From contig NZ_JAVKTS010000002.1 in NCBI RefSeq assembly GCF_031460495.1, forward strand, positions 209,332-241,331: a DNA stretch of 32,000 bases, given 5' to 3'. Both the position numbers and the translations under genes were made by a program. The DNA comes from Tissierella sp. (lineage in GTDB: Bacteria; Bacillota; Clostridia; Tissierellales; Tissierellaceae). Of the stretch, positions 5,028-30,143 are shown piece by piece (position 1 is the stretch's first letter; every line of letters starts with the position of its first letter). A model generated the notes under the pieces. It was given only the letters and a program-made list of their open reading frames with translations, had not been told where the DNA came from and ran no database searches.

Positions 5028-5093
5028 ACCTAAAATTATATAAAAAGGGTTAGACAATTGAAAATAAGAAACTAGAAATACAAGGAGGTGCTT

Positions 5094-6503: not shown

Positions 6504-6562
6504 AAAACCATAGGATTGATTAATCTGTGAATAAAATATTTTTGGGAATGGAGGTAAATGTA

Positions 6563-9383: not shown

Positions 9384-9980
9384 ATGGAAAAATATAGTTC
9401 AGGACTTGTATCAGAATCTTTTTGGTTTATCGAATTCAAAAAGATAATAAAGTTGAGAAATGACGGTAAATCTTGGGATGACATTAGAGATCTATGTTTA
9501 AATGATAATTTGCTTGGCATCTCGAAGGAGTATAGAGCAAGGCGTATTTATGGATACTTAAAAAATCGAGTCGATGTAATTGATGAAGGTCTAATAAATA
9601 TATTTATCAATGCGGATTTAACAACTCAGAAGATTATCAATATTATTGCCATAGCAAAGAAAAATAGATTGTTTTTTGAGTTTTTATATGAGGTATATCG
9701 TGAAAAGGTACTACTTGGCGCTATAGAGCTTACAGATAGTGACATTAATATCTTTTTCAAAAATAAGCAGGGGCAAGATGAAGATATTAGCAAATGGACA
9801 GATGTGACATTAAAAAGACTTCGTAGCACGTACATGAATTTTTTAACTGATGCAGGATTTTTAACCGGAATAGATAAACAAAGAAGTATCACACCACCGA
9901 TCTTAGAAATCTCACTGGAGAATTATCTTAAAGATAATGGCGAAAAGCAGATGCTTAAAGCTATAAGGGGGGCAGATTAA
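9384..9980 (+). CDS. brxA: BREX protein BrxA (DUF1819)
   Basis: About 198 aa, starts 'YSSGL...', helical, ends '...FLTDAGFL'. Its position is immediately 5' of brxB/brxC. Confidence 0.85.
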   Translation: MEKYSSGLVSESFWFIEFKKIIKLRNDGKSWDDIRDLCLNDNLLGISKEYRARRIYGYLKNRVDVIDEGLINIFINADLTTQKIINIIAIAKKNRLFFEFLYEVYREKVLLGAIELTDSDINIFFKNKQGQDEDISKWTDVTLKRLRSTYMNFLTDAGFLTGIDKQRSITPPILEISLENYLKDNGEKQMLKAIRGAD

Positions 9981-10565
9981 TTGCGTAATTTAGAGAGTAG
10001 GCTTAATGAATTAGAAGATAAGATAAAACAGCCAAATTTTAGAAAGAATAAAGGTCTTGGAAATGAAGTAGGTTATTATGTATTCGATTACCCAGCAGAG
10101 CAAGAGCTTACTGTGAGAGAAAGAGTGCATTATCTTGTATCAAAGTATGAAAAAAATGTTCATGATTTTAAGTTAATTGTATTTGATTTGTATGACATTA
10201 TTATAGATTTGTTGATACAAGAAGGCTTTTTAGAAATTTGCGAAGAATTTGAAAAGACGAAAGGTTTACAAGAGATTACAAGGGCAGTCAACGAGATGCT
10301 TCGTATGGAAGAAGATAACCAAAGTAATGAGATATTGGCGCATATTAAGAAAAATACACCAAAGGATTCAATTGTGTTTTTAACAGGTGTTGGGAAATGC
10401 TTTCCTATTTTGCGTTCACATAAAATTCTAAACAATTTACATCAATTTATAGATGAGGTTCCAGTTGTAATGTTTTTTCCTGGAAAGTACGATGGTCAAT
10501 CATTGATGCTTTTTTCTGAAATTAAAGATGATAATTATTACAGAGCATTTAAGCTCGTAGATTGA
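9981..10565 (+). CDS. brxB: BREX protein BrxB (DUF1788)
   Basis: 194 aa, abuts the brxA stop (TTG start). 'YYVFDYPAEQEL' is the characteristic BrxB N-terminal motif. Position fits. Confidence 0.85.
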   Translation: MRNLESRLNELEDKIKQPNFRKNKGLGNEVGYYVFDYPAEQELTVRERVHYLVSKYEKNVHDFKLIVFDLYDIIIDLLIQEGFLEICEEFEKTKGLQEITRAVNEMLRMEEDNQSNEILAHIKKNTPKDSIVFLTGVGKCFPILRSHKILNNLHQFIDEVPVVMFFPGKYDGQSLMLFSEIKDDNYYRAFKLVD

Positions 10566-10578
10566 GAGGTGGAGGATT

Positions 10579-13500: not shown

Positions 13501-14205
13501 CCTGTAAAAGCTTTCTTTGGTGGGGAACAGATTGAGATTTGGAATCGAAGTCTACGCTTGCTAAAGATATATGATGATAGTAAGACATTTATAGTCAACA
13601 AAGAAATTGAAACAGTGGTTGCTGAAATAAAAGGAATCATGAAGAAATCATATCCTTATAGTGAAATCAGAAAGATACCTGAACTTCTTGAGCGTTATAC
13701 AGAACATTATAATAGAATGCTCGATGAAATGGAGCAACCTGTTCTTGCTGCCATTAAAGAAGCACACTCTCGTGTTGTGGAAGAACTTGAAGGAAAAGAG
13801 TGCAAAGATATATTTTCTAAAAAGGTATATGAACGTTTTAATGAAATTAGTGAAAAAGCAAAAAGCTGTAATAATGTAGCTACCTTACAAAATATAAAAG
13901 TGGAAGCTGATGCTTTAAAAGTCCGATTGCTCAATGAGATTAGTACAGAAGAAACACGCATTATAGAATCAAAACTACTAAAACCAACACCTGAATCAGG
14001 AGCCGACAAAGTCGCTGAAAATCATATGCCTTTTATTAATAAGCCAAAGATGAAAACCCAAAAGACTGTTAGTATCAAATCAATCAATTCAGAGACTACT
14101 TGGAGGATTGAAACAGAAGCAGATGTAGACCGTTATGTTGAAACCTTAAAGGCAAAATTAAAGCAAAGTATTAAAGAAAATACAATCTTGAATATAGAAT
14201 TTTAA
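10579..14205 (+). CDS. brxC: BREX P-loop ATPase BrxC/PglY
   Basis: 1208 aa. Walker A 'GFFGSGKSHF', Walker B 'IVFLVDEIGQY', long coiled C-terminal half. GGTGGAGG RBS. Confidence 0.9.
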   Translation: MFIKNMFAKPIDRNIKGVIKVGQGDDENVKQELEEYVVTRELQKHFADFFSSYKRGIVGNTDAMGVWISGFFGSGKSHFLKILSYLLENRVVDGKTALNYFIEDKKIKDEMVLADMQLAANVSSDVILFNIDSKSGMGDTQNNKEAILSVFLKVFNQHLGFYGANPFLADLERQLTEEGKYEDFKKAFAEIRGKKWLDSRHQFRFIQDDVCKTLVQIDFMSMDAAKNWCESSTGTYNIDIMTFANMVKKYINKKGNNHHIVFLVDEIGQYIGDDSKLMLNLQTVTEDLGSACHGKAWVVVTSQQDIDSITKTKGNDFSKIQGRFDTRLSLSSANVDEVIRKRILEKTETGRQTLGLLYDEKDTIIKNLIIFNDGIEKKLYSDRNDFSAVYPFVPYQFNLLASVLTSIRTHGASGKHLAEGERSMLALFKESAMKIMENSEGSIVPFNLFYDALEQFLDHSHKGVIIRAYDNEYLNPDKLEDCFDVNVLKTLFMIKYVKEIVANLENITSLMISNIDDDRIVLKDKVEQSLKRLVRQTLIQKTGEVYVFLTDEEQEINREIESQNVEISEVIGKVSEMIFDGLYSEKKYRYPAFNGRYNFGFNQIVDDRPYKGNQNYDISLRILTPNYESGTDETTLRMMSGQSKCVIVALPDDKAFIDEIRSALKIEKYLRLNTSNRVSKYEQIKEAKRVEMRERNSNARIFLEESLKDADIYTNSDKIQNVSKDIAVRINDALGRLVHTVYHKLSYIDTSVGESHIRSVLKGNNNNQLSLDGTDQTPNKLALKDVLDFISMNTQRHAKTSMKSIMERFTKAPYGFIEDDVQWLIAKLFKDGDIALFVNNDVVTLLTKSEDEVYRYLSRKEYLEKLLTEQREKANDKQKKAVREVMKELFNVSPMSDEDDSMLKSFQQYATNLKNDLEKLEIHYKNEPSYPGNNVVKDGKSELMNLLEIKYSVEFFKTVDDKLDKILGFAEDYEPVKAFFGGEQIEIWNRSLRLLKIYDDSKTFIVNKEIETVVAEIKGIMKKSYPYSEIRKIPELLERYTEHYNRMLDEMEQPVLAAIKEAHSRVVEELEGKECKDIFSKKVYERFNEISEKAKSCNNVATLQNIKVEADALKVRLLNEISTEETRIIESKLLKPTPESGADKVAENHMPFINKPKMKTQKTVSIKSINSETTWRIETEADVDRYVETLKAKLKQSIKENTILNIEF

Positions 14206-14217
14206 CGGGAGGAAGTT

Positions 14218-17200
14218 ATGAATAAGACAGCAATTAAGAACTTTGCCATATGGGCTAGATGTAAACTCATCAGCGATATCACATATAAAGCAGGGGTTAT
14301 AGGTATCAATGAAAAATGCATATTACAGCCATTGCCAATATCCACAGATAATGTACAATTTTTTGACATTGGTACAGGAAAACCTACTGAGATTTCAAAT
14401 CATGAAATTAAGCAACGTAATGCTCTTGTACATAGAATCAAAGAAAAAGAAAGTACATCTGATTATAGAACGGCTTTTCAATTTGTTATGGAAGAAGTTG
14501 CATATACGTGGTTTAATCGCTTGGTTGCTATTCGTTTTATGGAAGTCAATGATTATCTACCTTCACGTATTCGTGTACTTTCAAGTGAAACAAAGGGAAA
14601 GTCAGAACCAGATATGGTGACGACACCCTTTGATACGGATATGAATTTCTCACCATATGAAAAAGATAGAATCGTACAGTTAAAAGATGAGAATAAATTG
14701 AATGAACTATTCCGTATGCTATTTATTAAGCAATGTAATAAATTAAATGAGGTGCTTCCCGAACTCTTCGAAGAGACATCGGACTATACAGAATTCTTAC
14801 TTAATATTTCTTTTACAGATAAAGATGGAGTTGTAAGTCATCTTATAAATGATATTGAAGAGAAAGATTTTACTGAGGCAGTAGAAATTATCGGATGGCT
14901 TTACCAGTATTATAATGAAGAACGTAAGAATGAGGTCATAAATATTTATAAAGGAACAATTAAAAAGGATGACATACCAGCAGCCACGCAGTTATTTACA
15001 ACGGATTGGGTTGTTCGTTATATGGTTGATAATTCTCTAGGTCGTTATTGGATAGAAAGAAATCCTCAGAGTAAATTACAAGATAAATTACAATATTTTT
15101 TGACACCTAAAAATGGTGAAATTCAATTTATTAATGAAAAAGTTACCCCTGAAGAGATGACGTTTTTTGACCCTTGTATGGGAAGTGGTCATATTCTTGT
15201 ATATGCCTTTGATGTACTTATGGAAATATATAGAGAGTGTGGTTATGTAGATAGAGATGCAGCACAGGCAATTGTTGAAAACAATCTATTTGGGTTGGAT
15301 ATTGATAACCGCGCTTATCAACTTGCTTATTTTGCAGTTATGATGAAAGCACGTAGTTATGATAGAAGATTTTTAACTAGAAAAATCGAACCTAATATTT
15401 CTGTAATTGAAGAAACCAATACAATTAAAAAGTTTAGCTGTGATGGTGTTACTAACGACAGAGAACAGAATAAAGTTGGTGAATATCTTGTTAATGCCTA
15501 TAAGCATGCAAAAGAAATAGGTAGTTTAATACCTATTGAAAATAGAGATTATAATGCGTTTGAAGAATATTTAAATACCTGTAACCTTTCTGGTCAGATT
15601 ACAATTGATAGCGATCATTGGAACAGAGATACTTTACCAGTAATGATAAAGGTTGTAAAACAAGCACGTATTATGATACAAAAGTATTCAGTTGTTTGTA
15701 CCAATCCTCCTTATATGAACAAATTAGAGGGGAATCTCAAAAAGTTTGTGGTTGAGAAATACAAACCATATAGTGGAGATTTATTCTCTGTGTTTATATA
15801 TAAAAATTTTGATTACTGTAAGCCAAACGGTTATTCAGCATTCATGACACCATTTGTATGGATGTTTATAAAAACTTATGAAAAACTGAGGGAATATATC
15901 ATCAATCAAAAATCAATTACTACACTTGTGCAGATGGAATATTCTGCTTTTGAGGAAGCTACTGTACCTATATGCTCTTTTGTTTTGAAAAATGGCAAAA
16001 TAGAAAAAGGATTGTATTTTAAGCTGTCTGATTTTAAAGGTGGAATGGAAGTACAGAAACAAAAAGTGTTAGAAGCAATTGAGGATAAAGAGTGTGGATA
16101 CTTTTATGAAACAAGTTCAGAAAACTTCTCCAAAATCCCTGGTTCGCCGATTGCGTATTGGGTAACTGAGAAAATTCATTTATGTTTTGAAAAAGGGAGT
16201 ATTCTTGGTGAAATTGCGAAACCTCGACAAGGTATGGCAACAACAAATAACAATCTTTTCTTAAGGCAATGGTATGAAGTTAATAATATGAAAACTTTTT
16301 TTATTGCAAAAAATAGCAAAGAAGCTTATGAGAGCAGTAAGAAATGGTTTCCATATAATAAAGGCGGAGAATATAGAAAGTGGTATGGAAATAATGATTG
16401 TTTAGTTAATTGGGAAGATGATGGCAGAGATATAAAAAAATACCTCGAAGGCAAAAATCCGAACATTCCAAGAGGTGAATCTCTTTATTTTGACAAGTGC
16501 TTTTCTTGGTCGTTAATTTCTTCTGCATCACCTGCTTTTAGATTTAAAGATTATGGAAATATATTTGATATTGCAGGAATGAGTTGTTTTTCCACCAATA
16601 ATCTCTGGTATCTGTTAGCATTGTGCAATAGTAAAATTGCACTAAAAATTCTTAGAATTTTAGCGCCTACGATTAATTTCCAAGCGGGAGATATCGCAAA
16701 TATACCTGTTATTTTTTCCAAAGAACACGAGGCACAAATAAATATTTTAGTCGATCAAAATATTTCCATCTCTAAAACTGATTGGGATTCCTTCGAAACA
16801 TCATGGGATTTTATTACTCATCCACTCATTATCTATCGTAGTAGTGCAGATTATGCCGATGTACAGATGGATAAATGGCAGTTTAAAATAGTTGATGCTT
16901 TTAGAAGTTGGGAAAGTAATACAGAAACGCAATTTAATATCCTCAAAGCCAACGAAGAAGAACTTAATCGTATTTTCATAGAAATATACGGCTTACAAGA
17001 TGAACTTACTCCCGAGGTAGAAGATAAGGATGTTACTGTCCGAAAGGCAGACCTACAAAGAGATATTAAAAGCCTTATATCCTATGCAGTTGGATGCATG
17101 TTCGGGAGATATTCCCTTGATGTAGATGGCCTTGCTTACGCAGGTGGCGAATGGAATGATAGCAAATACACCACTTTTATACCTGATGAGGATAACTGTG

Positions 17201-17790
17201 TTCCAATTACCGATGAAGAATATTTTGAAGATGACATTGTTGGTTTATTTGTTGCATTTGTAAAGAAAGTGTACGGAATTGAAACTCTTGAAGAAAATCT
17301 TGATTTTATTGCAAAAGCGCTAGGCAATAAAGGTGATACTTCAAGAGAGGTAATTCGTAACTACTTTGTAAAAGATTTTTATAAAGATCATTTAAAGATT
17401 TATCAGAAACGTCCAATTTATTGGTTATATGACAGTGGTAAACAAGATGGATTCAAAGCTCTAATATACATGCACCGTTATAATGCTGATACAACAGGTA
17501 TTGTTCGTGTTGACTACCTTCACAAAATGCAGAAAATTTATATGGGTGAAATTGATCGTATGCAGGATATGGTGGAAAATGGTACTCAAGTTCGTGAAAT
17601 TGCACAGGCAGAAAAACGGAAAGAGAAACTTATTAAACAGCTTAAAGAAACAAAAGAATATGATGAGAAAATTGCCCATATTGCTCTTAGTCGAATAGAT
17701 ATAGATCTTGATGATGGAGTAAAGGTTAATTATGAAAAAGCTCAAACAGCTCAAGATGGCAAGAAACTTGATATTCTTGGAAAGATCTAG
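14218..17790 (+). CDS. pglX: BREX N6-adenine DNA methyltransferase PglX
   Basis: 1190 aa. SAM motif 'FFDPCMGSGHILV', catalytic 'NPPY' (15703-15714). Size and position are canonical. Confidence 0.9.
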   Translation: MNKTAIKNFAIWARCKLISDITYKAGVIGINEKCILQPLPISTDNVQFFDIGTGKPTEISNHEIKQRNALVHRIKEKESTSDYRTAFQFVMEEVAYTWFNRLVAIRFMEVNDYLPSRIRVLSSETKGKSEPDMVTTPFDTDMNFSPYEKDRIVQLKDENKLNELFRMLFIKQCNKLNEVLPELFEETSDYTEFLLNISFTDKDGVVSHLINDIEEKDFTEAVEIIGWLYQYYNEERKNEVINIYKGTIKKDDIPAATQLFTTDWVVRYMVDNSLGRYWIERNPQSKLQDKLQYFLTPKNGEIQFINEKVTPEEMTFFDPCMGSGHILVYAFDVLMEIYRECGYVDRDAAQAIVENNLFGLDIDNRAYQLAYFAVMMKARSYDRRFLTRKIEPNISVIEETNTIKKFSCDGVTNDREQNKVGEYLVNAYKHAKEIGSLIPIENRDYNAFEEYLNTCNLSGQITIDSDHWNRDTLPVMIKVVKQARIMIQKYSVVCTNPPYMNKLEGNLKKFVVEKYKPYSGDLFSVFIYKNFDYCKPNGYSAFMTPFVWMFIKTYEKLREYIINQKSITTLVQMEYSAFEEATVPICSFVLKNGKIEKGLYFKLSDFKGGMEVQKQKVLEAIEDKECGYFYETSSENFSKIPGSPIAYWVTEKIHLCFEKGSILGEIAKPRQGMATTNNNLFLRQWYEVNNMKTFFIAKNSKEAYESSKKWFPYNKGGEYRKWYGNNDCLVNWEDDGRDIKKYLEGKNPNIPRGESLYFDKCFSWSLISSASPAFRFKDYGNIFDIAGMSCFSTNNLWYLLALCNSKIALKILRILAPTINFQAGDIANIPVIFSKEHEAQINILVDQNISISKTDWDSFETSWDFITHPLIIYRSSADYADVQMDKWQFKIVDAFRSWESNTETQFNILKANEEELNRIFIEIYGLQDELTPEVEDKDVTVRKADLQRDIKSLISYAVGCMFGRYSLDVDGLAYAGGEWNDSKYTTFIPDEDNCVPITDEEYFEDDIVGLFVAFVKKVYGIETLEENLDFIAKALGNKGDTSREVIRNYFVKDFYKDHLKIYQKRPIYWLYDSGKQDGFKALIYMHRYNADTTGIVRVDYLHKMQKIYMGEIDRMQDMVENGTQVREIAQAEKRKEKLIKQLKETKEYDEKIAHIALSRIDIDLDDGVKVNYEKAQTAQDGKKLDILGKI

Positions 17791-17801
17791 GGTGATGATT
17801 T

Positions 17802-18521
17802 ATGGAGAAGGAAATGATAATTTCTGATATTAATCACTTGCTTAATACTGTTAGTACCGCTATTGAGGATGAAGATTCAAATATGTCTTCGTTTATTTAT
17901 GATAATTATATTAGAATTGCCGAAGTATGCAAAAGTAATTACTTTTTAAATATTCCGTTACTTTCATTGAATGATATTCTGAATTATGAAGAAAAGGGTG
18001 GTATGCGAGGAACATATTCTGCAATTCAAACGAGTTTAAAGCAGATTAAGAGTAGAATAGAAATATATATAAGTTATAATCCGAGAACTTATACTAAACC
18101 GTATTTTATGGATATTAAAGATTCAATTATTTCAGAAATCGAACGAGCAAGTTTTGTTATTTGGATTGCTATTGCTTGGTTTACGGATCTTGATATTTAT
18201 AAAGCTTTATTATCTGCTAAAGAGCAAGGTGTAAATGTTCAAATATTAACACTCAACCATGAAAATAATAAAAATAGAGATGGTAGCTATAAGTTGGACT
18301 TTAGAAAGAAAATTGAAACTAAATACTTTTCCGGATATGTTGTAGGGCAAGAAAATTTACATCATAAATTTTGCATGATTGATTTTGAAATGGTTATTAC
18401 TGGATCATATAATTGGACTATAAGTGCAAGTAAAAATTCAGAAGATGTAATATTTGTTTATGATATAGAAACAGCAAAAAATTATGCTGAAAAATTTGTA
18501 GATTTAAAGAAAAAAGTTTAA
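17802..18521 (+). CDS. PLD-superfamily (single HKD, Nuc/BfiI-like) putative nuclease with an uncharacterised ~100-aa N-terminal region
   Basis: 'HHKFCMID' (HxKx4D) plus 'GSYNWT' at 18360-18419. Upstream, 'ASFVIWIAIAWFTDLDIYKALLSAKEQGVNVQIL' is the usual PLDc_2 beta-alpha-beta start. There are 11-nt gaps to pglX and to pglZ. Confidence 0.75.
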   Translation: MEKEMIISDINHLLNTVSTAIEDEDSNMSSFIYDNYIRIAEVCKSNYFLNIPLLSLNDILNYEEKGGMRGTYSAIQTSLKQIKSRIEIYISYNPRTYTKPYFMDIKDSIISEIERASFVIWIAIAWFTDLDIYKALLSAKEQGVNVQILTLNHENNKNRDGSYKLDFRKKIETKYFSGYVVGQENLHHKFCMIDFEMVITGSYNWTISASKNSEDVIFVYDIETAKNYAEKFVDLKKKV

Positions 18522-18532
18522 GGTGGTGAAAA

Positions 18533-21052
18533 ATGGCAGAACTTAATTTAAAACAGATAACAGATAAACTAAATAGCGAATTTGCATCAGATATCCGTAA
18601 GCTAGTCTTCTGGTATGATGCTAATGCAGAATTTGTATCAGATATAGATACATTGGAACTTGAGAATGCAAAGATTTTCAGACTTGAGAGAGACAATCAG
18701 TTTCATACGAAATATTTCTTAGAGCGTAAAGATACAAAAACTAATTATTTAATATATGCACCTTTTCCAAAGCCAGCACTAAAGGACAATCATCTGGCAG
18801 ATACAATACGCTATTCCAAAGAGTTTTTTGCAGACAGAGCCTCATTACTGGCGATCGATTTAGGTATTGATGAGAAGTATAAGCCTGTGCTACAACATTA
18901 TATTAAGTTCTTTGGGGCGAAAGATAGAACACAAAAGTTTTATGAATTGGAAATTGAGAATTTTAATAAACCAGTTATAGAAACAGCACTTATGAGTGTA
19001 ATTTGCAAGACTAAGGTTGTTTCATTTGAGGAAATTGTCAGGACCATGATTTCAGAGGGAGAGTTAGAGAATAATAAATATTTGGCTGAATTTGAGAAGT
19101 ATGATTTGATAGAACCTTTCTGGAAGATGTGTGAGGAAACCTTTGGATACACAGATATTGTACCGTCTTTATCAAAACTTATTTACACATTGTTTGTGAC
19201 CTATACCTCAAAGGTGATTCATACAGAGCTTCCACAAGCATGGAGAAATTATTGTTCTTATAAATCAGGGAATATCATAGCTTTTTTGGATAGTTTAATG
19301 AATAGCCTGATTTATAATGAGAACTTCGATGAACTTTCACAGATGGTATATGACAGCTTAAAAGGTGACGATATCTTTGAAAGAATAGGGACAGATAATA
19401 TAGTTGATTGTGAAATATTCCGTAAGGTTGATATCTTCATAATTAAATGGCTTATTGCAAGGCTTGAGAATGAAGATACCGATGCTAAATTGCATGGATA
19501 TACTATACCGGAAATTTGTCGTTTAAGAAGAAAGATGCACTATAGAAAGATATATTATTCCCATTACTATATTATTGAAAATGCCTATTACCTGATTCTT
19601 GCAGCTCACTTTGAGCCTAAGAAAACAATAGAAGAAATAGCAAATCAATATATTGTAAAAGATTATATGATTGACCAGAAATATCGCTATTTCTATTTTC
19701 ACTTTGATAAAGTGTTAAATAATACCCCATATGAATCTCTTCGTGATTTGGTAGAGAATATTTATACAAATAAATTCTTAGATGAATTGTCCGTAGAGTG
19801 GAACAAGGCCTTAGTAGATGCGAAAGCAGATACAGGGCTTATAAAACAGCAGGAATTTTTTAATAGATATATAAGAAACTCCAAAGAACGTGTTGTTGTT
19901 ATTATATCCGATGCACTCCGCTTTGAAGTAGGGCAAACCCTAATGAAAAGGTTGCAGGAAGATGAAAAATGTACAGCGAAGATTGCAGCAATGCAAAGTG
20001 TCTTACCTTCCTATACGAGATTTGGTATGTCAGCATTACTCCCACATAAAGAACTTTCTATGAGTGATGACTATAAGATTTTAGTAGATGGTAAGGTATG
20101 TGATGATTTAAAGTCGAGAGAACAAATACTACAAACTTATGTGCCAAATAGTCGAACAGTCCAATTTGATGACATAAAAACAATGAAGATAGCTGATTTG
20201 AAGGAGATATTCGTTGGACAGGATGTTGTATATATATATCATAATCAGATAGATGCCAGAGGTGATAAGCTAAATACTGAAAATGAAGTCTTTATTGCCT
20301 GCGAAGAAGCTGTAGAAGAGATTCATACTATGATAAAAAGACTTACAAGTGCCAATAACATTCATTTTATAATAACGGCAGATCATGGATTCATCTATAA
20401 ACGTGACAAACTAGCTGAAAGTGATAAAATTGGTGGCTTTCATAAGAATAATGCTTTGGTTGGCAGACGATATGTTGTTGCAAACGAAAGAGTGAATGCA
20501 GATGGTATTGGAAGTGTTACACTAGGGGATATATTAGGGAGTGATGATCAAAGGGTAGTTTCAGTTCCAATAGGCAGCGATGTTTTCAAAGTGTCTGGAG
20601 GAGGCCAAAACTATGTGCATGGCGGTTCTTCATTACAGGAATTGATTATCCCTGTCATAGATGTAAGAACTAACAAATATCATACAGAAACTAAAACGGT
20701 AAGTATTGGACTTGTGAGCTTGGTGCATAAGATTACCAATCTTATGACTAATCTTGATTTTATCCAGACAGATCCAGTTACTGATATTAATAAAGAGACG
20801 GTTTATAAACTGTTCTTTATCTCAGATGATAATGAAAAAATTTCAAATGATAATATCTACGTTGCAGATAAAAAAGATAAAGATGCAAGTAAGCGAATAT
20901 TCCGATTAAAGTTTACTTTTAAGAATAAACAATATGGTAAAAACAGAAAATATTACCTTGTTGCCTATGATGAAAAAAATGCACTTGAAGTGATTCGTCA
21001 TGAGGTAAAGATGGACTTAGCATTTGTTGATGATTTCGGGTTTAATGTTTAG
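18533..21052 (+). CDS. pglZ: BREX alkaline-phosphatase-superfamily protein PglZ
   Basis: 839 aa. 'VVVIISDALRFE' and 'IITADHGF' are PglZ-domain motifs. AGGTGGTGA RBS. Confidence 0.9.
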   Translation: MAELNLKQITDKLNSEFASDIRKLVFWYDANAEFVSDIDTLELENAKIFRLERDNQFHTKYFLERKDTKTNYLIYAPFPKPALKDNHLADTIRYSKEFFADRASLLAIDLGIDEKYKPVLQHYIKFFGAKDRTQKFYELEIENFNKPVIETALMSVICKTKVVSFEEIVRTMISEGELENNKYLAEFEKYDLIEPFWKMCEETFGYTDIVPSLSKLIYTLFVTYTSKVIHTELPQAWRNYCSYKSGNIIAFLDSLMNSLIYNENFDELSQMVYDSLKGDDIFERIGTDNIVDCEIFRKVDIFIIKWLIARLENEDTDAKLHGYTIPEICRLRRKMHYRKIYYSHYYIIENAYYLILAAHFEPKKTIEEIANQYIVKDYMIDQKYRYFYFHFDKVLNNTPYESLRDLVENIYTNKFLDELSVEWNKALVDAKADTGLIKQQEFFNRYIRNSKERVVVIISDALRFEVGQTLMKRLQEDEKCTAKIAAMQSVLPSYTRFGMSALLPHKELSMSDDYKILVDGKVCDDLKSREQILQTYVPNSRTVQFDDIKTMKIADLKEIFVGQDVVYIYHNQIDARGDKLNTENEVFIACEEAVEEIHTMIKRLTSANNIHFIITADHGFIYKRDKLAESDKIGGFHKNNALVGRRYVVANERVNADGIGSVTLGDILGSDDQRVVSVPIGSDVFKVSGGGQNYVHGGSSLQELIIPVIDVRTNKYHTETKTVSIGLVSLVHKITNLMTNLDFIQTDPVTDINKETVYKLFFISDDNEKISNDNIYVADKKDKDASKRIFRLKFTFKNKQYGKNRKYYLVAYDEKNALEVIRHEVKMDLAFVDDFGFNV

Positions 21053-21069
21053 TTTAGGAGGATGGCAGA

Positions 21070-23139
21070 ATGGCTGATTTAAATAAATTTGATGAAGTAG
21101 ATAATCCCAATACTGTCATAAATAAAAAGCTAAGACAGTATTTTGACGGGAAGATAGTCCGAAAGGATTTGACAAAATCTATTAAAGAGGGAGCTAATGT
21201 ACCCATTTACGTTCTGGAATTTTTATTGGGGCAATATTGTAGCTCTGATGATCCGGACATTATTGAAGAAGGAGTAAAAACAGTAAAAAAAATTCTAGCA
21301 GATAATTTTGTTCGCCCTGATGAAGCACAGAAGGTTTTATCTATTTTGCGTGAACAAGGTAGTTATACAGTAATAGACCGTATTACTGCTAAACTTAATA
21401 TTAAGCAAGATCGATACGAAGCAGAATTCTCGAATCTAGGAGTTAGGGAAATACTCCTTGCTCCTGATTATGTATCTAAGTTCGACAGATTACTTTGTGG
21501 TGGTATTTGGTGCATTGTTCAACTTGAATATGAATTTTTAGAAGAAGACAAAAGAGCAACTCCCATTCGTGTGAGGAAATTGACACCAATTCAGATGCCT
21601 CATATTGAGTTAGATGAAATAAAGGAAGCCAGAAAAGAATTTACAAAAGATGAGTGGATTAATATTTTACTTCGTTCTACAGGTATGGAACCAGATAAAT
21701 TTACTGAACGTGAAAAATGGCTTCTCCTTGCTCGTATGATTCCACTTGTAGAAAACAATTTTAATCTTTGTGAACTTGGTCCTCGTAGTACAGGTAAGTC
21801 CCATATTTACAAAGAGATATCACCTAATAGCATTCTTGTATCTGGAGGTCAAACTACAGTTGCTAATCTTTTTTATAACATGGCCAATAAGACAATTGGT
21901 CTGGTTGGAATGTGGGATTGTGTTGCTTTTGATGAGGTTGCAGGGATTACCTTTAAAGATAAAGACGGTATTCAGATTATGAAGGATTATATGGCATCAG
22001 GTTCATTTGCTCGTGGGAAAGAGGAAAAGGCTGCGAGTGCATCTATGGTTTTTGTAGGTAATATTAATCAAAGTGTGGATGTACTACTAAAAACCTCTCA
22101 TTTATTCGAGCCATTTCCAGAAGCTATGGCTTATGATACTGCTTTCCTTGACCGTATGCATTGTTATATCCCTGGTTGGGAAATACCGAAGTATAGACCA
22201 GATTTCTTTACAAATGAATATGGATTTATAACGGATTATTTTTCTGAATTTATGCGTGAAATGCGTAAAGAACAGTTTAGTGATATAAGTGATAAATATT
22301 TTAGATTTGGTTCTAACTTAAACCAACGTGATGTTATTGGTGTCAGAAAAATGATATCAGGGTTTGCTAAGCTTCTCTATCCAAACGAGGAATTTACAAA
22401 AGAAGATATAGCTGAGATAGTGACTATATCACTTGAACTAAGAAGACGTGTAAAAGAACAGCTTAAAAAGATAGGTGGAATGGAATTTTATGATGTGAAT
22501 TTCTCCTACATAGATAATGAAACCTTTGAAGAACATTATGTATCAGTTCCAGAACAAGGTGGAGGCAAATTGATTCCTGAAGGCATCAGTAACCCTGGAC
22601 ATGTGTATACCATATCAAGAGGTAAAACTGGTATGATAGGAGTCTATCGTTTGGAAACACAAGTTTTACCGGGCAATGGAAAATTTGAACGCACTGGTCT
22701 TGGTACTGATAGAGAAGCTAGAGAGGCTACTAATACTGCATTTAACTATCTAAAAGCTAATGGTCATTCAATCAGCAACTCTATTAGTACGACAACAAAA
22801 GATTACATCATAAATTATCAGGATTTAAATGGAATAGGAATTACTAAATACTTAACCTTACCTACACTAATTGCAATTGCATCAGCAGCACTAAATAAGC
22901 CAACCTTAAGTAGTCTTGCTGTTTTAGGTGATATCAGTATCAGTGGAACAATTTTAAAAGTAGAGGAATTGGCCAGTGTATTGCAAGTATGCCTAGATAG
23001 CGGAGCAAAGAAGGTGTTACTACCAATTACATCTGCAGCAGAGATGGGAACAGTGCCATCGGATTTGATGGGTGCTTTTAGCATAATATTTTATTCAACG
23101 CCACAAGAAGCAGTGTTTAAAGCTTTAGGTGTAGAGTAA
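21070..23139 (+). CDS. brxL: BREX Lon-like ATPase/protease-domain protein BrxL
   Basis: 689 aa. Walker A 'GPRSTGKSH', Walker B-like 'VAFDEVAG', C-terminal Lon-protease-like fold ('AVLGDISISGTILKV...GAKKVLLP'). AGGAGG RBS. Confidence 0.9.
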   Translation: MADLNKFDEVDNPNTVINKKLRQYFDGKIVRKDLTKSIKEGANVPIYVLEFLLGQYCSSDDPDIIEEGVKTVKKILADNFVRPDEAQKVLSILREQGSYTVIDRITAKLNIKQDRYEAEFSNLGVREILLAPDYVSKFDRLLCGGIWCIVQLEYEFLEEDKRATPIRVRKLTPIQMPHIELDEIKEARKEFTKDEWINILLRSTGMEPDKFTEREKWLLLARMIPLVENNFNLCELGPRSTGKSHIYKEISPNSILVSGGQTTVANLFYNMANKTIGLVGMWDCVAFDEVAGITFKDKDGIQIMKDYMASGSFARGKEEKAASASMVFVGNINQSVDVLLKTSHLFEPFPEAMAYDTAFLDRMHCYIPGWEIPKYRPDFFTNEYGFITDYFSEFMREMRKEQFSDISDKYFRFGSNLNQRDVIGVRKMISGFAKLLYPNEEFTKEDIAEIVTISLELRRRVKEQLKKIGGMEFYDVNFSYIDNETFEEHYVSVPEQGGGKLIPEGISNPGHVYTISRGKTGMIGVYRLETQVLPGNGKFERTGLGTDREAREATNTAFNYLKANGHSISNSISTTTKDYIINYQDLNGIGITKYLTLPTLIAIASAALNKPTLSSLAVLGDISISGTILKVEELASVLQVCLDSGAKKVLLPITSAAEMGTVPSDLMGAFSIIFYSTPQEAVFKALGVE

Positions 23140-23237
23140 AGGGGATTTTGTGGAGAAGAGAAAGAATCAAAAAAAGACTGTATACGAGGCGAAAGTATAA
23201 CTATCTCAATAATGCGGATATGGAGGGGCAAGTCATT

Positions 23238-23978
23238 ATGACTACTACACTAGTTAATTTTTTATTGATAAATAGTAGTGCTTTATCAATTGATATGTTT
23301 AGCTATACAGAAGACATTATGAAAGTACTATTCAAAAAAGGGTTAATAACTCAATTTAGTATTAGTGATGCAAGAGCAGATTTTGGCGATGGTACATGTA
23401 TTGTTGAGATTGTGGATACTATATACACATCAGAATATATTTACATAAAAGGCGAAGAAAAAACACATTGGCAGTTGATTTTCGAATTTGGAACATTTAC
23501 ATCATCTAGTCAGTTGCAAATAAAAATTAACTCGAATGATTATGACGTAAAAGTTGCTGATAACTATTTAGAACAACTAAAACTTTCTATCAAGAATATT
23601 GTCAAATCAGATTGGGAAAGAACTATTTGGCTAATGGATAAGGACTCTGAAATTTTGTCAATTACTCTTTATCCGAGTGTTTATAGAGTAGAAAACATGA
23701 CACGACAGTTGATAAGTGAAATAATGACTAAGGAGTATGGTATTGGTTGGTGGGATGCATATGTTCCGATACAAATAAGAAATAAGCACAAAGTCAGATT
23801 GAGTGGGTATAAATCAATTGCCCCAGGATTTGCGAATGTCGATGAAAGACTAATGTCTATTGATATTGGGGATTTAAATTCCATACTCACTTTGAAAGAG
23901 AAAAAGTGGAACCCATCATTCAGCACAGAAATAAACAATTTCTTAATAACCAGTCAGATATTAAGCTTGAAAAAATGA
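23238..23978 (+). CDS. Hypothetical protein; the C-terminal part looks like the first half of a Swt1-like HEPN domain
   Basis: GGAGGGG at 23222-23228 then ATG at 23238, preferred over the basic TTG-initiated extension from 23148. 'VENMTRQLISEIMTKEYGIGWWDAYVPIQIRNKH...IDIGDLNSIL' matches the E..lR..I...G..WW...P pattern of Swt1-type HEPN as I recall it. There is no RX4-6H in this ORF. Confidence 0.55.
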   Translation: MTTTLVNFLLINSSALSIDMFSYTEDIMKVLFKKGLITQFSISDARADFGDGTCIVEIVDTIYTSEYIYIKGEEKTHWQLIFEFGTFTSSSQLQIKINSNDYDVKVADNYLEQLKLSIKNIVKSDWERTIWLMDKDSEILSITLYPSVYRVENMTRQLISEIMTKEYGIGWWDAYVPIQIRNKHKVRLSGYKSIAPGFANVDERLMSIDIGDLNSILTLKEKKWNPSFSTEINNFLITSQILSLKK

Positions 23979-25006
23979 AAGAAGTATTATCTGACCAAAT
24001 GGAAGTTACCCTCGATCTGTGGGGAGAACAGTTTTCAAAATATTTATCAGAAGATTTTATAAAGAATTTTAAAACATTTGAGTTAAACCGTAACCATGTT
24101 GTTCATAACAAATTGATTGATCGTACGGCATATAGTAGTATATTCAACTCTATAAATATAGTAGAAGTAGAACTAAAAAAAGCATTGCAGAAAGTCGGGG
24201 AAATTGTTGTTTCCAGAGAACAAAGGGATGCAATTGAAGAACAAATGTATATAGCTCAACAGGAATCAGAAGCCGCGCTACATGAAATAATGGAGTCAGA
24301 GACTGGTGTTGAAATTAGGAATTCAGAGGAAATCATCGACTTGTATGACGAGTATTTATATCAATTTCACTCAGAACTTCAAGATTATTTAAGATTTCGC
24401 AATGACTTAGAAGTTGGAGAATATCAAAATATTTTATCTAAAAATAATGCTGGTACATTGTTTGAAATTACATATAAAATTAACGATAAAGTAGCCATAG
24501 TTAGCTATTCTATTGAATCTATTGATGATTCTCAGGGCGGAGAAAGTACTGTCGAGATAATAATTACATTAGATGAAAAAAGCGAATCTCATTCAATTAC
24601 TTATAGGAATGGAGAGGTGGTTTTTAACTCATACCAAGGGTGCTATTTACCAGAAACTCAAGATGCTATTTCCACAGAAGACATAGGTTTGCTAAAGGAT
24701 TATCTTGTAGAATTTCTCGATACTTATTTTGAAAATATTCGTGAGAAAGTGGATTCAGAAATGTATTCGATTATAAAAGATGGTGGGAATAGTCCCGTGG
24801 CGGACATTTCATGCTGTGAGTGTGGTGAAGAGTATATCTGTGTAGATGAAAATTATGGTGTATTTGGACAATGTCTAAATTGCGGAGAGATGAACGAAAT
24901 TTGTTTATGCGACAGGTGTGGTTGCTATTTTGAAGGTGAATCAAACGAATATAGAGATGCTCCAAACTTGTGTGATAGTTGTCAAGACTATTACGAAAAT
25001 CAATGA
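23975..25006 (+). CDS. Hypothetical protein with an N-terminal HEPN RX4H segment and a C-terminal four-CxxC zinc-ribbon cluster
   Basis: The ATG at 23975 overlaps the upstream TGA (ATGA). This frame is open from 23864. 'LWGEQF...FELNRNHVVHNKLID' carries RX4H at 24089-24106. The C-terminus reads 'CCECG...CLNCG...CDRCGC...CDSC'. Confidence 0.55.
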   Translation: MKEVLSDQMEVTLDLWGEQFSKYLSEDFIKNFKTFELNRNHVVHNKLIDRTAYSSIFNSINIVEVELKKALQKVGEIVVSREQRDAIEEQMYIAQQESEAALHEIMESETGVEIRNSEEIIDLYDEYLYQFHSELQDYLRFRNDLEVGEYQNILSKNNAGTLFEITYKINDKVAIVSYSIESIDDSQGGESTVEIIITLDEKSESHSITYRNGEVVFNSYQGCYLPETQDAISTEDIGLLKDYLVEFLDTYFENIREKVDSEMYSIIKDGGNSPVADISCCECGEEYICVDENYGVFGQCLNCGEMNEICLCDRCGCYFEGESNEYRDAPNLCDSCQDYYENQ

Positions 25007-25029
25007 AAGGACAAAAGAATTCTAAATTA

Positions 25030-25060
25030 AGCTCCCACTGTTCTAAGAATAGCAGGAGCT
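25030..25060. terminator. Hairpin between convergent genes (end of the BREX operon / end of immA)
   Basis: AGCTCC (25030-25035) pairs with GGAGCT (25055-25060), with further internal pairing. It lies exactly between the 25006 stop and the 25061 stop. The flanking T-tracts are weak. Confidence 0.45.
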
Positions 25061-25600
25061 TTACACTTTTATCTTCTTTAAAAAATCACCTTCAGGACGA
25101 TAAGGTACATTAAAATCATATCCCATTTTATTCATTTCCTGCATTTTTATTAGAAGTAGATTAATATGTGAATTTAACATGCTTGAAATTTGCACTATAT
25201 CATAACCATCTCGTGCTAGAGCTAATACCTCATCATTATCAATTAACAAATGAGAACCAAAGATATTGGCTTCGTATTCGGTAGTATTTTTCATATCAAA
25301 AAGTTCAAATTCCTTAAGACCATTACTGGCTAAATTTCTATGAAAAATATCATGACCGATTTCATGAGCTAATACCATCTGCCGCATGTGGTCATCTAAA
25401 TTATTATTAATAAAGATAATACGTTGTTTCCAACGATAGGTATACATGCCAAGTAGGTCATCATAATTCTCATAATAAATTTTGATACCAAGTTCATTGG
25501 CAATCTGTCTGGTATCCCTTGTCCCTATACGGTTGACAAGAGCATTTGCTTTCTTATATATTCTGAAAGAGTCAATCAAAGCAGCACCCCCTGTATACAA
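25061..25600 (-). CDS. ImmA/IrrE-family zinc metallopeptidase (anti-repressor protease)
   Basis: 'LAHEIGHDIFH' is an HExxH motif. About 179 aa, directly downstream of an XRE repressor gene as in ImmR/ImmA modules. Confidence 0.85.
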   Translation of the reverse strand: MYTGGAALIDSFRIYKKANALVNRIGTRDTRQIANELGIKIYYENYDDLLGMYTYRWKQRIIFINNNLDDHMRQMVLAHEIGHDIFHRNLASNGLKEFELFDMKNTTEYEANIFGSHLLIDNDEVLALARDGYDIVQISSMLNSHINLLLIKMQEMNKMGYDFNVPYRPEGDFLKKIKV

Positions 25601-25638
25601 TCTACTATTCCCCTGTTATTATACTAAAAAAGTTGGAC

Positions 25639-26061
25639 TTATTCATTATTATCGTCATCTGTTCTATATTTTTTAGGAGTGTACTTTTTGTTTTCCTCTT
25701 TGGCGTCCCAATAAGCTTGTTGTAAGGAGCGCATAACAGCATCCTTATCTGCTTCTGATAATTCACCACCTGCAAATAATCCACCAATTTCAGCAACTAA
25801 GTCTTCAGCTTGTCTTGCACCATGATTGCCATATTTAGTTTTTGCCTTTGTGATAAATTCTTCATCTTCGGTTAAAAGATAATTAATATCGACATTAAAA
25901 AGTGTAGCTAATTTGGAATAAACTTCTCGTTTCTTTGGATAGCTGTTACTATTTTCGTAGCTAATAATTGTACGTAGTGAAACACCGATTTCTTTTGCCA
26001 AATCAGTCTGGGTCATATCTTTCCCTTTCCGTAAGTCTCTAAGTTTTTCTCCAAATCTCAT
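25639..26061 (-). CDS. XRE-family HTH repressor (ImmR-like)
   Basis: AAGGAGG then ATG at 26061 (minus strand). 'MRFGEKLRDLRKGKDMTQTDLAKEIGVSLRTIISYENSNSYP' is a canonical HTH_3. The longer ORF from 26094 lacks an RBS. Confidence 0.85.
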   Translation of the reverse strand: MRFGEKLRDLRKGKDMTQTDLAKEIGVSLRTIISYENSNSYPKKREVYSKLATLFNVDINYLLTEDEEFITKAKTKYGNHGARQAEDLVAEIGGLFAGGELSEADKDAVMRSLQQAYWDAKEENKKYTPKKYRTDDDNNE

Positions 26062-26110
26062 AATATCCTCCTTGAATATGAAGTTATATTTCATAAAACG
26101 TATTTTACTA

Positions 26111-30133: not shown

Positions 30134-30143
30134 GGTGAGGTAG

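What the first reader, a model, noticed from the sequence alone, without database searches (positions are those of the whole stretch)
23238..25006. Terminal BREX-operon module: unknown N-domain + Swt1-like HEPN + double zinc ribbon
Seen: no terminator lies between the brxL stop (23139) and these ORFs. The first hairpin comes after 25006, so they look co-transcribed with BREX. Together the two ORFs contain E..R / GWW helices (about 23690-23790), RX4H (RNHVVH, 24089-24106) and four CxxC-type pairs at the C-terminus (about 24811-24990). Established: HEPN domains with R-x4-6-H are metal-independent RNases used as abortive-infection/toxin effectors in many defence systems. Inference: this is a candidate RNase effector or sensor appended to BREX. 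The zinc ribbons may bind nucleic acid. The ~150-aa N-terminal region has no motif I recognise.
Basis: partly seen in the sequence, partly recalled or inferred. Interest (0 to 1): 0.75.

Follow-up and report, generated by a model that had tools for sequence, protein, structure and literature searches.

The report
Frameshifted stand-alone HEPN RNase gene
The two ORFs after the BREX operon are one gene, broken here by a single-base deletion, for an uncharacterised ~590-residue HEPN ribonuclease-type protein with two zinc ribbons that travels on mobile elements next to many different defence systems, so it is probably an independent immune effector and not a part of BREX.

Summary
ENxxR, GxxWW and RNHxxHN, plus four CxxC pairs, are invariant across an alignment of 25 diverse homologues.

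Two parts of the interpretation need correcting.

1. The two ORFs are one gene. Full-length homologues are about 570-600 aa. Three independent metagenome contigs of the same element (97-99.8% identical) carry an intact ORF. The window lacks one A at 23945/23946 (TTAAAT to TTAAT), which splits the HEPN domain. This copy is therefore a pseudogene or a sequencing error.

2. It is not a BREX module. The whole window is an integrative conjugative element (ICE) with BREX as cargo. None of 80 species-level genome loci has homologues of the window's BREX proteins within 10 kb. Homologues instead sit after Lamassu, Gabija, Thoeris, Mokosh or kinase genes, beside serine recombinases, and in Tn7-like cargo. 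They also occur on 147 plasmids and in a prophage, with no conserved partner.

The HEPN assignment (Swt1-like, PF18731) holds at family level: 24 of 25 members match, best E 2.7e-10. Fold searches gave no confirmation.

The best reading is a stand-alone, mobile-element-borne, trigger-gated HEPN RNase of the abortive-infection type. Its architecture resembles RAZR and HEC-08, but it belongs to neither. Interest is moderate.

The parts
23140..23237 (+). Intergenic gap between the brxL stop and the gene start. It holds a Shine-Dalgarno sequence, GGAGGGG, at 23223-23229.
   Evidence: Sequence read. No terminator-like site and no strong promoter-like site lie in the gap.
23238..23945 (+). 5' part of the gene, residues 1-236, in the frame of ORF1. 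ORF1 then runs out of frame to a stop at 23978.
   Evidence: Colinear with the intact homologue P0001 up to ...EINNFL.
23238..23639 (+). N-terminal alpha/beta domain, residues 1-134, with topology beta-alpha-beta4-alpha-beta. No family match. It is the least conserved domain (mean identity 38%).
   Evidence: AlphaFold2 model, pLDDT 87. Only weak Foldseek matches to KA1, BamC-N and METTL16-VCR type domains, E about 1e-2. Conservation figures.
23640..24208 (+). Swt1-like HEPN domain, residues 135-324, with a roughly 80-residue insertion. Key motifs are ENMTRQ (23689-23709), GIGWWD (about 23740-23757) and RNHVVHNK (24089-24112). The frameshift splits this domain.
   Evidence: PF18731 hits. PADLOC PDC-M34B, E 1.9e-11. 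Invariant residues.
23945..23946 (+). Frameshift site. The window has AA where intact copies have AAA (TTAAAT to TTAAT, a 1-nt deletion).
   Evidence: blastn alignments with L001 and L002 and the L098 sequence.
23946..25006 (+). 3' part of the gene, residues 237-589 plus the stop codon, in the frame of ORF2. ORF2 as listed starts at GTG 23906.
24209..24403 (+). Two long helices that form a linker (coiled-coil-like), residues 325-389.
   Evidence: Secondary structure of the AlphaFold2 model: H333-362 and H369-393 in P0001 numbering.
24404..24784 (+). Central alpha/beta domain: a seven-stranded sheet followed by two helices, residues 390-516. No family match.
   Evidence: Weak START/Bet v1-like Foldseek matches only.
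24785..25003 (+). C-terminal tandem zinc ribbons with the pattern CxxC-x16-CxxC-x8-CxxC-x17-CxxC. The first Cys codon is at 24812.
   Evidence: Eight Cys are invariant in 25 homologues. Four CxxC are present in most of about 90 copies. There is no Pfam hit.
25029..25078 (+). Hairpin (AAGCUCC...GGAGCUU) followed by a U-rich tract. It is a likely terminator between this gene and the convergent ImmA gene.
   Evidence: strand folding: dG -18.2 kcal/mol, z -2.68. The consensus scan missed it because of its long loop.
9384..23139 (+). Upstream type 1 BREX operon: brxA, brxB, brxC, pglX, an embedded PLD gene, pglZ and brxL. This is context, not part of the gene family's conserved neighbourhood.
   Evidence: Pfam hits.
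25061..26094 (-). Convergent ImmA/IrrE-type peptidase gene (25061-25600) and XRE HTH repressor gene (25639-26094). Together they form the ICE regulatory module.
   Evidence: Pfam. The same arrangement follows homologues in L032 and L033.

Best explanation
Positions 23238-25006 hold one gene. It encodes a protein of about 589 residues from an uncharacterised family found almost entirely in Bacillota.

Domain order:
- a variable N-terminal alpha/beta domain;
- a Swt1/Abi2-clade HEPN domain with an intact ENxxR...RNHxxHN catalytic signature;
- a two-helix linker;
- a second alpha/beta domain;
- two C-terminal zinc ribbons.

The family is a stand-alone cargo gene of mobile elements: ICEs, conjugative plasmids, prophages and Tn7-like transposons. 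It lands in defence islands next to many different systems. In this ICE it happens to lie directly downstream of brxL.

The most likely mechanism is inferred, not shown. The protein would be an auto-inhibited, metal-independent HEPN endoribonuclease. Two HEPN domains would pair to form the composite R-x4-H active site. The non-catalytic domains, above all the exchangeable C-terminal module, would sense an infection or invading-DNA cue and release RNA cleavage. That would stop growth of the infected cell, as in abortive infection.

In this particular window the gene carries a 1-nt deletion inside the HEPN domain. If the deletion is real, this copy is inactive.
For: One gene with a frameshift:
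- 226 homologues were found, and full-length ones are 571-599 aa.
- The intact allele is present in three independent contigs at 97-99.8% identity.

HEPN domain:
- PF18731 matches 24 of 25 members, best E 2.7e-10.
- P0149 scores 28.8 bits, above the gathering cut-off.
- PADLOC PDC-M34B matches at E 1.9e-11.
- The catalytic residues are invariant.

Zinc ribbons: eight Cys are invariant.

Stand-alone and mobile:
- The window itself is an ICE, with MobL, Toprim, TraG, ImmA/XRE and serine recombinases.
- Homologues lie in a related ICE upstream of mobL, after Lamassu LmuB, and after SieB/nSTAND and beside AbiE.
- Others lie after a Ser/Thr kinase and next to TnsD/TniQ, GajB, ThsA, MkoA, SIR2, Mrr and Schlafen AlbA_2 genes.
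- The family is on 147 plasmids, 108 of them predicted conjugative, and in Clostridium phage CWou-2020b.
- Clustering of neighbours found no conserved partner.

Modular sensor idea:
- The HEPN domain is the most conserved part (57% mean identity) and the N-domain the least (38%).
- The C-terminal zinc ribbons are replaced by DUF3427 in L063 and by an acidic tail in a Lachnospiraceae subfamily.

Precedents from papers:
- RAZR uses a Cys4 zinc ribbon as its phage-protein sensor and a HEPN RNase as its effector (PMC13017515).
Against: - No experiment exists on any member of the family.
- The window's own sequence scores below Pfam's cut-off: 21.5 bits for the repaired translation and 25.6 bits for P0001, against 27.5.
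- A toxic RNase with no antitoxin needs auto-inhibition, which is assumed here, not shown.
- A defence-island context is guilt by association.
- The copy in this window is disrupted, so nothing can be said about its activity here.
Confidence: 0.6

Rival explanations
1. The gene is a BREX-coupled back-up effector. In this element it would be transcribed with BREX and functionally wired to it, for example firing when BREX is inhibited, in the way PrrC guards EcoprrI.
For: - The gene is on the same strand as brxL, separated by a 98-nt gap with no terminator-like site.
- The arrangement is kept in four copies of the element.
- A 2026 survey reports HEPN, Schlafen and PIN RNases immediately next to BREX loci and proposes them as back-up suicide effectors (PMC12839542).
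- The PADLOC PDC candidates were derived from genes embedded in BREX, DISARM or type I RM systems.
Against: - None of 80 genome loci of the family has homologues of the window's BREX proteins within 10 kb.
- The four BREX-adjacent copies are one element at 97-99.8% identity, so they count as a single event.
- The same family follows Lamassu, Gabija, Thoeris and other genes elsewhere.
- Other copies carry their own promoter-like upstream regions.
- The gene lies outside the BREX core, at its edge next to the ICE regulatory module.
Confidence: 0.12
2. The gene serves the mobile element itself and not phage defence. It could be an RNase used in competition between mobile elements, in exclusion of or interference with incoming plasmids or ICEs, or as an addiction-type toxin that stabilises the element.
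For: - The gene is carried almost exclusively by ICEs, conjugative plasmids (108 of 147), prophages and Tn7-like elements.
- In the most abundant ICE it sits directly upstream of the relaxase gene.
Against: - There is no conserved antitoxin-like neighbour.
- Its position within mobile elements is variable (cargo slots), not fixed in the transfer operon.
- Its neighbours are typical anti-phage systems.
- The boundary between phage defence and anti-mobile-element defence is blurred, so this rival overlaps the best explanation.
Confidence: 0.2
3. The protein is a non-catalytic HEPN that binds RNA or nucleotides in a regulatory role, like the inactive HEPN of eukaryotic Swt1.
For: The Swt1 HEPN of eukaryotes is thought to be inactive (PMC3710099). 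The zinc ribbons and the KA1/VCR-like fold hints could indicate nucleic-acid binding.
Against: Bacterial Swt1-like HEPNs are described as catalytically active. R, H and the flanking N residues of RNHxxHN are invariant in about 90 copies, which is the pattern expected of an active site.
Confidence: 0.05
4. The two ORFs are meant to be separate, or are joined by programmed ribosomal frameshifting.
For: The two frames overlap over 23906-23978. By coincidence, a -1 shift near AAT TTC TTA would recreate the wild-type peptide ...NNFLNNQ... (sequence).
Against: - All homologues are single ORFs.
- Three near-identical copies have the extra A.
- There is no X XXY YYZ slippery heptamer and no long homopolymer at the site.
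- The split falls inside the HEPN domain.
- ORF2 has no convincing ribosome-binding site.
Confidence: 0.03

Closest known systems
PADLOC candidate PDC-M34, protein B (untested 'phage defence candidate' found by guilt-by-embedding in BREX, DISARM or type I RM systems)
   Same: This is the only defence-database model that matches (E 1.9e-11). The homologous part is the N-terminal half of the HEPN domain. The candidate set was derived from genes embedded in BREX and similar systems.
   Different: - The match covers only residues 142-231 and model positions 59-148 of 192.
- The PDC-M34B model is 192 positions long, against about 589 residues for this protein.
- PDC-M34 is a multi-gene candidate, and no conserved partner was found here.
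- No paper in the searched library mentions PDC-M34.
RAZR (PD-T7-4), ring-activated zinc-finger RNase
   Same: It is a single-protein system that combines a Cys4 zinc ribbon with a HEPN RNase. It acts by abortive infection. The zinc-ribbon domain senses phage proteins, and the R/H residues are essential (PMC13017515).
   Different: - RAZR's structural model covers residues 3-179 plus a further unplaced part of the HEPN domain, so it is far smaller.
- Its domain order is ZnR then HEPN, the reverse of this protein.
- Its HEPN is DUF4145.
- This protein has neither a DUF4145 nor a PD-T7-4 match. Its HEPN is Swt1-like, it has two ribbons at the C-terminus, and it has two extra alpha/beta domains.
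[quoted passage not shown]
   Same: The order of modules is the same, with the HEPN first and the zinc-binding modules at the C-terminus. It is a validated single-gene defence that is lost on mutation of the Rx4-6H histidine, and it was found embedded in another defence system.
   Different: It uses a different HEPN family (DUF3644, the EC042_2821 type). This protein matches no HEC-08 or DUF3644 model, and HEC-08 has no equivalent of the N-terminal and central alpha/beta domains.
AbiD/AbiF (Abi_2) and bacterial Swt1-like HEPNs such as the HEPN-DUF499 ATPases
   Same: They fall in the same HEPN clade (Abi2/Swt1) in the 2013 classification. They are active RNase-type domains found in abortive-infection and restriction contexts (PMC3710099).
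   Different: There is no Abi_2 or DUF499 match, and the flanking domains are different.
BREX-adjacent 'auxiliary/back-up' nucleases (PMC12839542)
   Same: A HEPN RNase lies immediately next to a type 1 BREX core on the same strand.
   Different: That paper describes the phenomenon in general terms, as stand-alone or MNT-fused HEPNs. This family's association with BREX is confined to one element.

Membership tests
HEPN superfamily, Swt1-like family (Pfam PF18731) | Significant match to the family profile | tested here: met
   24 of 25 diverse members match at E <= 0.01, best E 2.7e-10. P0149 scores 28.8 bits against a gathering cut-off of 27.5. The window's repaired protein (21.5 bits) and P0001 (25.6 bits) are just below the cut-off.
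HEPN superfamily, Swt1-like family (Pfam PF18731) | Conserved R-x4-6-H catalytic motif | tested here: met
   RNHVVH lies at 24089-24106. R291, N292, H293, H296 and N297 are invariant, and RNHxxHN is present in all of about 90 copies.
HEPN superfamily, Swt1-like family (Pfam PF18731) | Four-helix up-and-down HEPN fold similar to solved HEPN structures | tested here: inconclusive
HEPN superfamily, Swt1-like family (Pfam PF18731) | Metal-independent endoribonuclease activity and HEPN dimerisation | not testable with these tools
   This needs biochemistry.
BREX system component or dedicated BREX accessory gene | Recurrent co-occurrence with BREX core genes across lineages | tested here: not met
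   None of 80 species-level genome loci has blastp hits (E < 1e-5) to the window's BrxA, BrxB, BrxC, PglX, PglZ or BrxL within 10 kb. No BREX family appears in the neighbour tallies. Only the window, L001, L002 and L098 are BREX-adjacent, and they are one element.
BREX system component or dedicated BREX accessory gene | Same transcription unit as BREX in this locus | tested here: inconclusive
   The gene is on the same strand, after a 98-nt gap with no terminator-like site. No expression data exist, and homologues elsewhere have promoter-like upstream regions.
RAZR / PD-T7-4 | N-terminal Cys4 zinc ribbon followed by a DUF4145 HEPN, with a match to PD-T7-4 models | tested here: not met
   No PD-T7-4 hit in PADLOC and no DUF4145 hit in Pfam at E <= 1. 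The domain order is reversed and the protein is far larger.
HEC-08 | [quoted passage not shown] | tested here: not met
   No HEC-08 hit and no DUF3644 hit. The two are only analogous in architecture.
PDC-M34 (PADLOC candidate) | Full-length match to PDC-M34B and presence of the partner gene PDC-M34A | tested here: inconclusive
   There is a partial match only: residues 142-231, model positions 59-148 of 192, E 1.9e-11. No recurrent partner was found among neighbours, but PDC-M34A could not be queried by name.
HEPN-MNT (HepT/MntA) toxin-antitoxin | Adjacent or fused minimal nucleotidyltransferase antitoxin | tested here: not met
   The window neighbours are brxL and a convergent ImmA gene. No nucleotidyltransferase family appears among the 25 commonest neighbour families upstream or downstream.
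Zinc ribbon (tandem) | Two pairs of CxxC knuckles per ribbon, conserved across homologues | tested here: met
   C532, C535, C552, C555, C564, C567, C585 and C588 are invariant, with spacing CxxC-x16-CxxC-x8-CxxC-x17-CxxC. No Pfam zinc-ribbon model matches, and zinc binding itself cannot be tested here.

The most novel reading that the evidence does not exclude
This is an undescribed single-protein immune sensor-effector family, widespread on ICEs, conjugative plasmids, prophages and Tn7-like elements of Bacillota. A Swt1-like HEPN RNase would be gated by exchangeable sensor modules: a tandem zinc ribbon in most members, DUF3427 or an acidic tail in others, together with a fast-evolving KA1-like N-domain. 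Its abundance on a very common tetracycline-resistance ICE of gut Clostridia would make it one of the more prevalent uncharacterised defence genes of the human gut microbiome.
Probability: 0.4. Interest if true: 0.55.

Novelty: new variant of a known kind. Interest (0 to 1): 0.38.

Why it matters
If the intact protein is an active, trigger-gated RNase, it adds a new architecture to the group of HEPN effectors that carry a zinc-ribbon sensor, alongside RAZR and HEC-08. This one is native to Gram-positive mobile elements. It is carried by a very abundant gut ICE: the P0016 homologue is indexed in 1283 blocks of the assembly collection.

The natural swaps of the C-terminal module offer a ready-made test of which part senses infection.

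For genome annotation, three practical lessons follow:
- The gene should not be counted as a BREX component.
- The window's copy should be flagged as disrupted.
- 'Last gene of a defence operon' can simply be the next cargo gene in a mobile-element hotspot.

Tried and rejected
- Repairing the frameshift at the A5 run 23901-23905 was my first guess. It was wrong: comparison with P0001, L001 and L002 places the deletion at 23945/23946.
- Foldseek of the whole model against the PDB gave only weak alpha/beta-domain matches (KA1, BamC-N, METTL16 VCR, START-like; E about 1e-2). The output does not say which domain they match. The assignment of the KA1-like hits to the N-domain rests on its beta-alpha-beta4-alpha topology only.
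- Foldseek of a HEPN-only model against the PDB found nothing.
- Foldseek of the whole model against viral structures found nothing significant.
- A profile search against PDB sequences gave no relative. There was only a non-significant resemblance of the first ribbon to the S27e zinc ribbon.
- NCBIfam gave no hit.
- Literature searches for PDC-M34 and for HEPN_Swt1/PF18731 found no paper.
- Programmed frameshifting was rejected (see rival explanations).
- A conserved two-gene system was rejected, because clustering of neighbours at positions -3 to +3 found no partner shared across lineages. The one exception is a Schlafen AlbA_2 gene downstream of the subfamily that lacks zinc ribbons.
- Composition shows no boundary at the gene: GC is about 33% throughout.
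- Rfam finds no RNA family in or near the gene.
Full report
**What is in the sequence.**
- The interval holds two overlapping ORFs on the + strand. ORF1 runs 23148/23238-23978, and ORF2 runs 23906-25006 in the -1 frame relative to it.
  - ENMTRQ at 23689-23709 and GIGWWD at about 23740-23757;
  - RNHVVH at 24089-24106;
  - four CxxC pairs from 24812 to about 24990.
- The likely start is ATG 23238, preceded by GGAGGGG at 23223-23229. Homologues start at the equivalent position.

**The two ORFs are one gene.**
- A search with the joined translation found 226 proteins. The full-length ones are 571-599 aa and cover the whole query as a single chain.
- The closest, P0001 (98% identity, 595 aa as called), reads ...WNPSFSTEINNFLNNQSDIKLEK.... 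It follows ORF1 up to FL and ORF2 from NNQ.
- At the DNA level, two independent ENA metagenome contigs and one JGI contig read TTCTTAAATAACC where the window reads TTCTTAATAACC:
  - L001, 98.6% identical;
  - L002, 99.8% identical;
  - L098, 97.3% identical.
- In L002 and L098 this is the only indel over 3.2-4.0 kb.
- The window therefore lacks one A at 23945/23946.
- The break falls in a loop inside the HEPN domain. It separates the ENxxR helix from the RNHxxH helix, so this copy is probably non-functional if the deletion is real.
- These data cannot separate a true mutation from a sequencing error.
- Programmed frameshifting is unlikely. There is no slippery heptamer or long homopolymer at the site, and every relative is in frame.

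**Transcription signals.**
- No terminator-like site lies in the 98-nt gap after brxL.
- A hairpin with a U-rich tail follows the stop codon at 25029-25078 (dG -18.2 kcal/mol, z -2.7).
- Read-through from BREX is therefore possible.
- In other contexts the homologous gene is preceded by a terminator-like hairpin and extended -10 promoter-like sequences (TGGTACAAT, TGGTATAAT). The gene is evidently able to stand alone.

**Domain anatomy.**
- An AlphaFold2 model of P0001 built on 25 homologues is confident (mean pLDDT 87.1).
- It shows five parts, in P0001 numbering (window numbering is 6 lower):
  - an N-terminal alpha/beta domain (8-140) with topology beta-alpha-beta4-alpha-beta;
  - a helical domain with an insertion (141-330);
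  - two long linker helices (333-393);
  - a second alpha/beta domain (397-520);
  - a C-terminal Cys-rich region (530-595).
- The helical domain is a Swt1-like HEPN.
  - PF18731 is hit by 24 of 25 aligned members at E <= 0.01, best E 2.7e-10.
  - One further member reaches 28.8 bits against the 27.5-bit gathering score.
  - The window's own protein stays just under the cut-off at 17-21.5 bits, and P0001 scores 25.6 bits.
- PADLOC's candidate model PDC-M34B matches the first half of the domain (E 1.9e-11).
- Invariant residues include E158, N159, R162, W177, W178, R291, N292, H293, H296, N297, K298 and D301.
- RNHxxHN is present in all of about 90 copies collected.
- Eight Cys are invariant with spacing CxxC-x16-CxxC-x8-CxxC-x17-CxxC, which indicates two zinc ribbons in tandem.
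- Structural confirmation of the HEPN fold failed:
  - Foldseek against the PDB gave nothing for the domain model;
  - it gave only weak KA1, BamC-N, METTL16-VCR and START-like matches for the alpha/beta domains of the whole model;
- The HEPN call therefore rests on profile and motif evidence, not on fold comparison.

**Genomic context of the window.** The whole window is an integrative conjugative element. In order it carries:
- a MobL relaxase (11-1369);
- a Cthe_2314-like HEPN gene (1534-2301) and a SEC-C/TPR gene (2688-4634);
- a DUF3991-Toprim gene (5088-6503) and a TraG/VirD4 coupling protein (6527-8410);
- small HTH genes;
- a type 1 BREX operon: brxA 9384, brxB, brxC, pglX, an embedded PLD gene at 17802-18521, pglZ, and brxL ending at 23139;
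- the gene studied here;
- convergent ImmA and XRE genes (25061-26094);
- a sigma-like gene (27188-27661);
- serine recombinases (28544-31064).

BREX and this gene thus occupy a cargo slot between the transfer genes and the element's regulatory module.

**Context of homologues.**
- The most abundant homologue is P0016 (65% identity, Anaeromassilibacillus senegalensis, indexed in 1283 blocks). It lies in a related ICE with tet(M)-like cargo, immediately upstream of mobL, and that ICE has no BREX.
- Other contexts seen individually:
  - after a metallophosphatase-nSTAND gene and SieB, near AbiE and Fic, beside serine recombinases in Tissierella;
  - after a Ser/Thr kinase in Acetobacterium;
  - directly after Lamassu LmuB in an Enterococcus genome and in a metagenome contig.
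- A scan of one genome per species returned 80 loci, nearly all Bacillota.
  - None has homologues of the window's BREX proteins within 10 kb.
- Immediate upstream genes of the collected family loci include LmuB (3), TnsD/TniQ (3), serine recombinases (3), GajB (2), ThsA (2), MkoA (2), Stk2/PD-T4-6 kinases (2) and SIR2 (2).
- Immediate downstream genes include Schlafen AlbA_2 (5), Fic-like (3), Mrr (2) and nSTAND3.
- Clustering of the three genes on either side found no partner shared across lineages.
- The family also occurs on 147 plasmids: 134 Bacillus, 10 Enterococcus, and 108 predicted conjugative.
- It is also in Clostridium phage CWou-2020b, next to its recombinases, and is always annotated as hypothetical.
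- Streptococcus phi-m46.1-like prophages hold only a C-terminal remnant.
- A profile search of 1.84 billion representative proteins found 179 clusters at E <= 1e-30 and 398 at E <= 1e-10.

**Variation within the family.**
- The HEPN domain is the best conserved part, at 57% mean identity to P0001. The N-domain is the least conserved, at 38%.
- The C-terminal module is exchangeable:
  - most members have the double ribbon;
  - a Lachnospiraceae subfamily ends in an acidic helix and is usually followed by a Schlafen AlbA_2 gene;
  - a Paenibacillus member has DUF3427 in its place (E 1.6e-76).
- Several copies are truncated (L027, L039, the phi-m46.1 remnant). This fits a gene that is costly to keep.

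**Most likely mechanism.**
- Shown: a conserved HEPN catalytic signature, conserved zinc-binding cysteines, stand-alone distribution on mobile elements, and defence-island neighbours.
- Inferred:
  - the protein is an auto-inhibited HEPN endoribonuclease that dimerises to form its active site;
  - its non-catalytic modules sense an infection cue;
  - activation leads to RNA cleavage and growth arrest.
- Two studied proteins give precedents:
  - RAZR/PD-T7-4 has a Cys4 zinc ribbon that binds ring-forming phage proteins and switches on a DUF4145 HEPN RNase (PMC13017515);
- This family matches neither set of models. It may work like them, but it is not a member of either.

**Relation to BREX.**
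- A 2026 survey already reports HEPN, Schlafen, PIN and other nucleases directly beside BREX loci and proposes them as back-up effectors (PMC12839542). The general idea in the finding is therefore published.
- For this family, BREX adjacency is a single evolutionary event.
- A functional link in this element cannot be excluded, but the distribution does not support one.

**Verdict.**
- The HEPN, zinc-ribbon and unknown N-domain reading is right.
- The 'BREX module' reading is not supported.
- The family is an uncharacterised variant of a well-known kind, the stand-alone HEPN RNase defence-type effector on mobile elements.
- Interest is moderate. The family is a reasonable candidate for experimental test, but it would not surprise a specialist.

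Noticed in passing
window 1534-2301 and 2688-4634: A second HEPN gene (Cthe_2314-like, PF18730, E 4.5e-8) and a 648-aa SEC-C/TPR protein sit between the relaxase and Toprim genes of the ICE. They may be another defence-type cargo pair in a different slot.
   Followed up: no
window 17802-18521; L001 1433-1738: A PLD-like (PLDc_2) gene is embedded between pglX and pglZ. In the otherwise 98.6%-identical contig L001 the same slot holds a 101-aa YjcQ gene, and the adjacent pglX 3' end is only 86% identical. This looks like a variable embedded-gene slot inside BREX.
   Followed up: partly
window 27953-28032: The only Rfam hit in the window is a pemK RNA motif (RF02913, 69 bits, E 1.2e-10), upstream of the serine recombinase genes.
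   Followed up: no
window 8423-8683 and 9108-9320: Two small ORFs lie between traG and brxA. The 70-aa one, just upstream of brxA, looks like an XRE-type HTH by eye and could be a BREX regulator. Neither was scanned against a family library.
   Followed up: no
L013 6327-9878 and L014 6359-9943: In two loci with family members that are only distantly related to the window protein, the gene lies immediately downstream of a complete Lamassu-like operon (effector, MC3, LmuB). PADLOC finds LmuB as the upstream gene in 3 of 71 loci. This is the most frequent single neighbouring system seen.
   Followed up: partly
L085-L087, L090 (and L079-L083): A Lachnospiraceae subfamily lacks the zinc ribbons and ends in an acidic helix (...EEDWxAE...). 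In four or five loci it is followed within about 90-180 nt by a Schlafen AlbA_2/HATPase-like gene of roughly 480 aa. This may be a two-gene variant.
   Followed up: partly
L063 9731-12190: A Paenibacillus kribbensis member (819 aa) keeps the N-domain, HEPN and central domain but carries a DUF3427 domain (E 1.6e-76) in place of the zinc ribbons.
   Followed up: partly
L096 4001-4645 (Streptococcus phage phi-m46.1) and related records H2-H12: Twelve Streptococcus prophage records match the family. In eleven of them, many carrying the '_rum' suffix, the match is only a C-terminal remnant (residues 382-595). In phi-m46.1 the remnant lies about 2.7 kb downstream of tet(O) and is only partly annotated as ORF63.
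   Followed up: partly
L023 (JAAYKC010000144.1): A contig binned as a 'Thermoplasmatales archaeon' MAG carries the same gene order as the bacterial ICE of P0016, including the homologue at 65% identity to the query. This is probably a binning contaminant.
   Followed up: no
L075 10019-12010: One member has a low-complexity insertion of about 80 residues, made of PEGTAPEIPSGTE-type repeats, in the linker after the HEPN domain.
   Followed up: no
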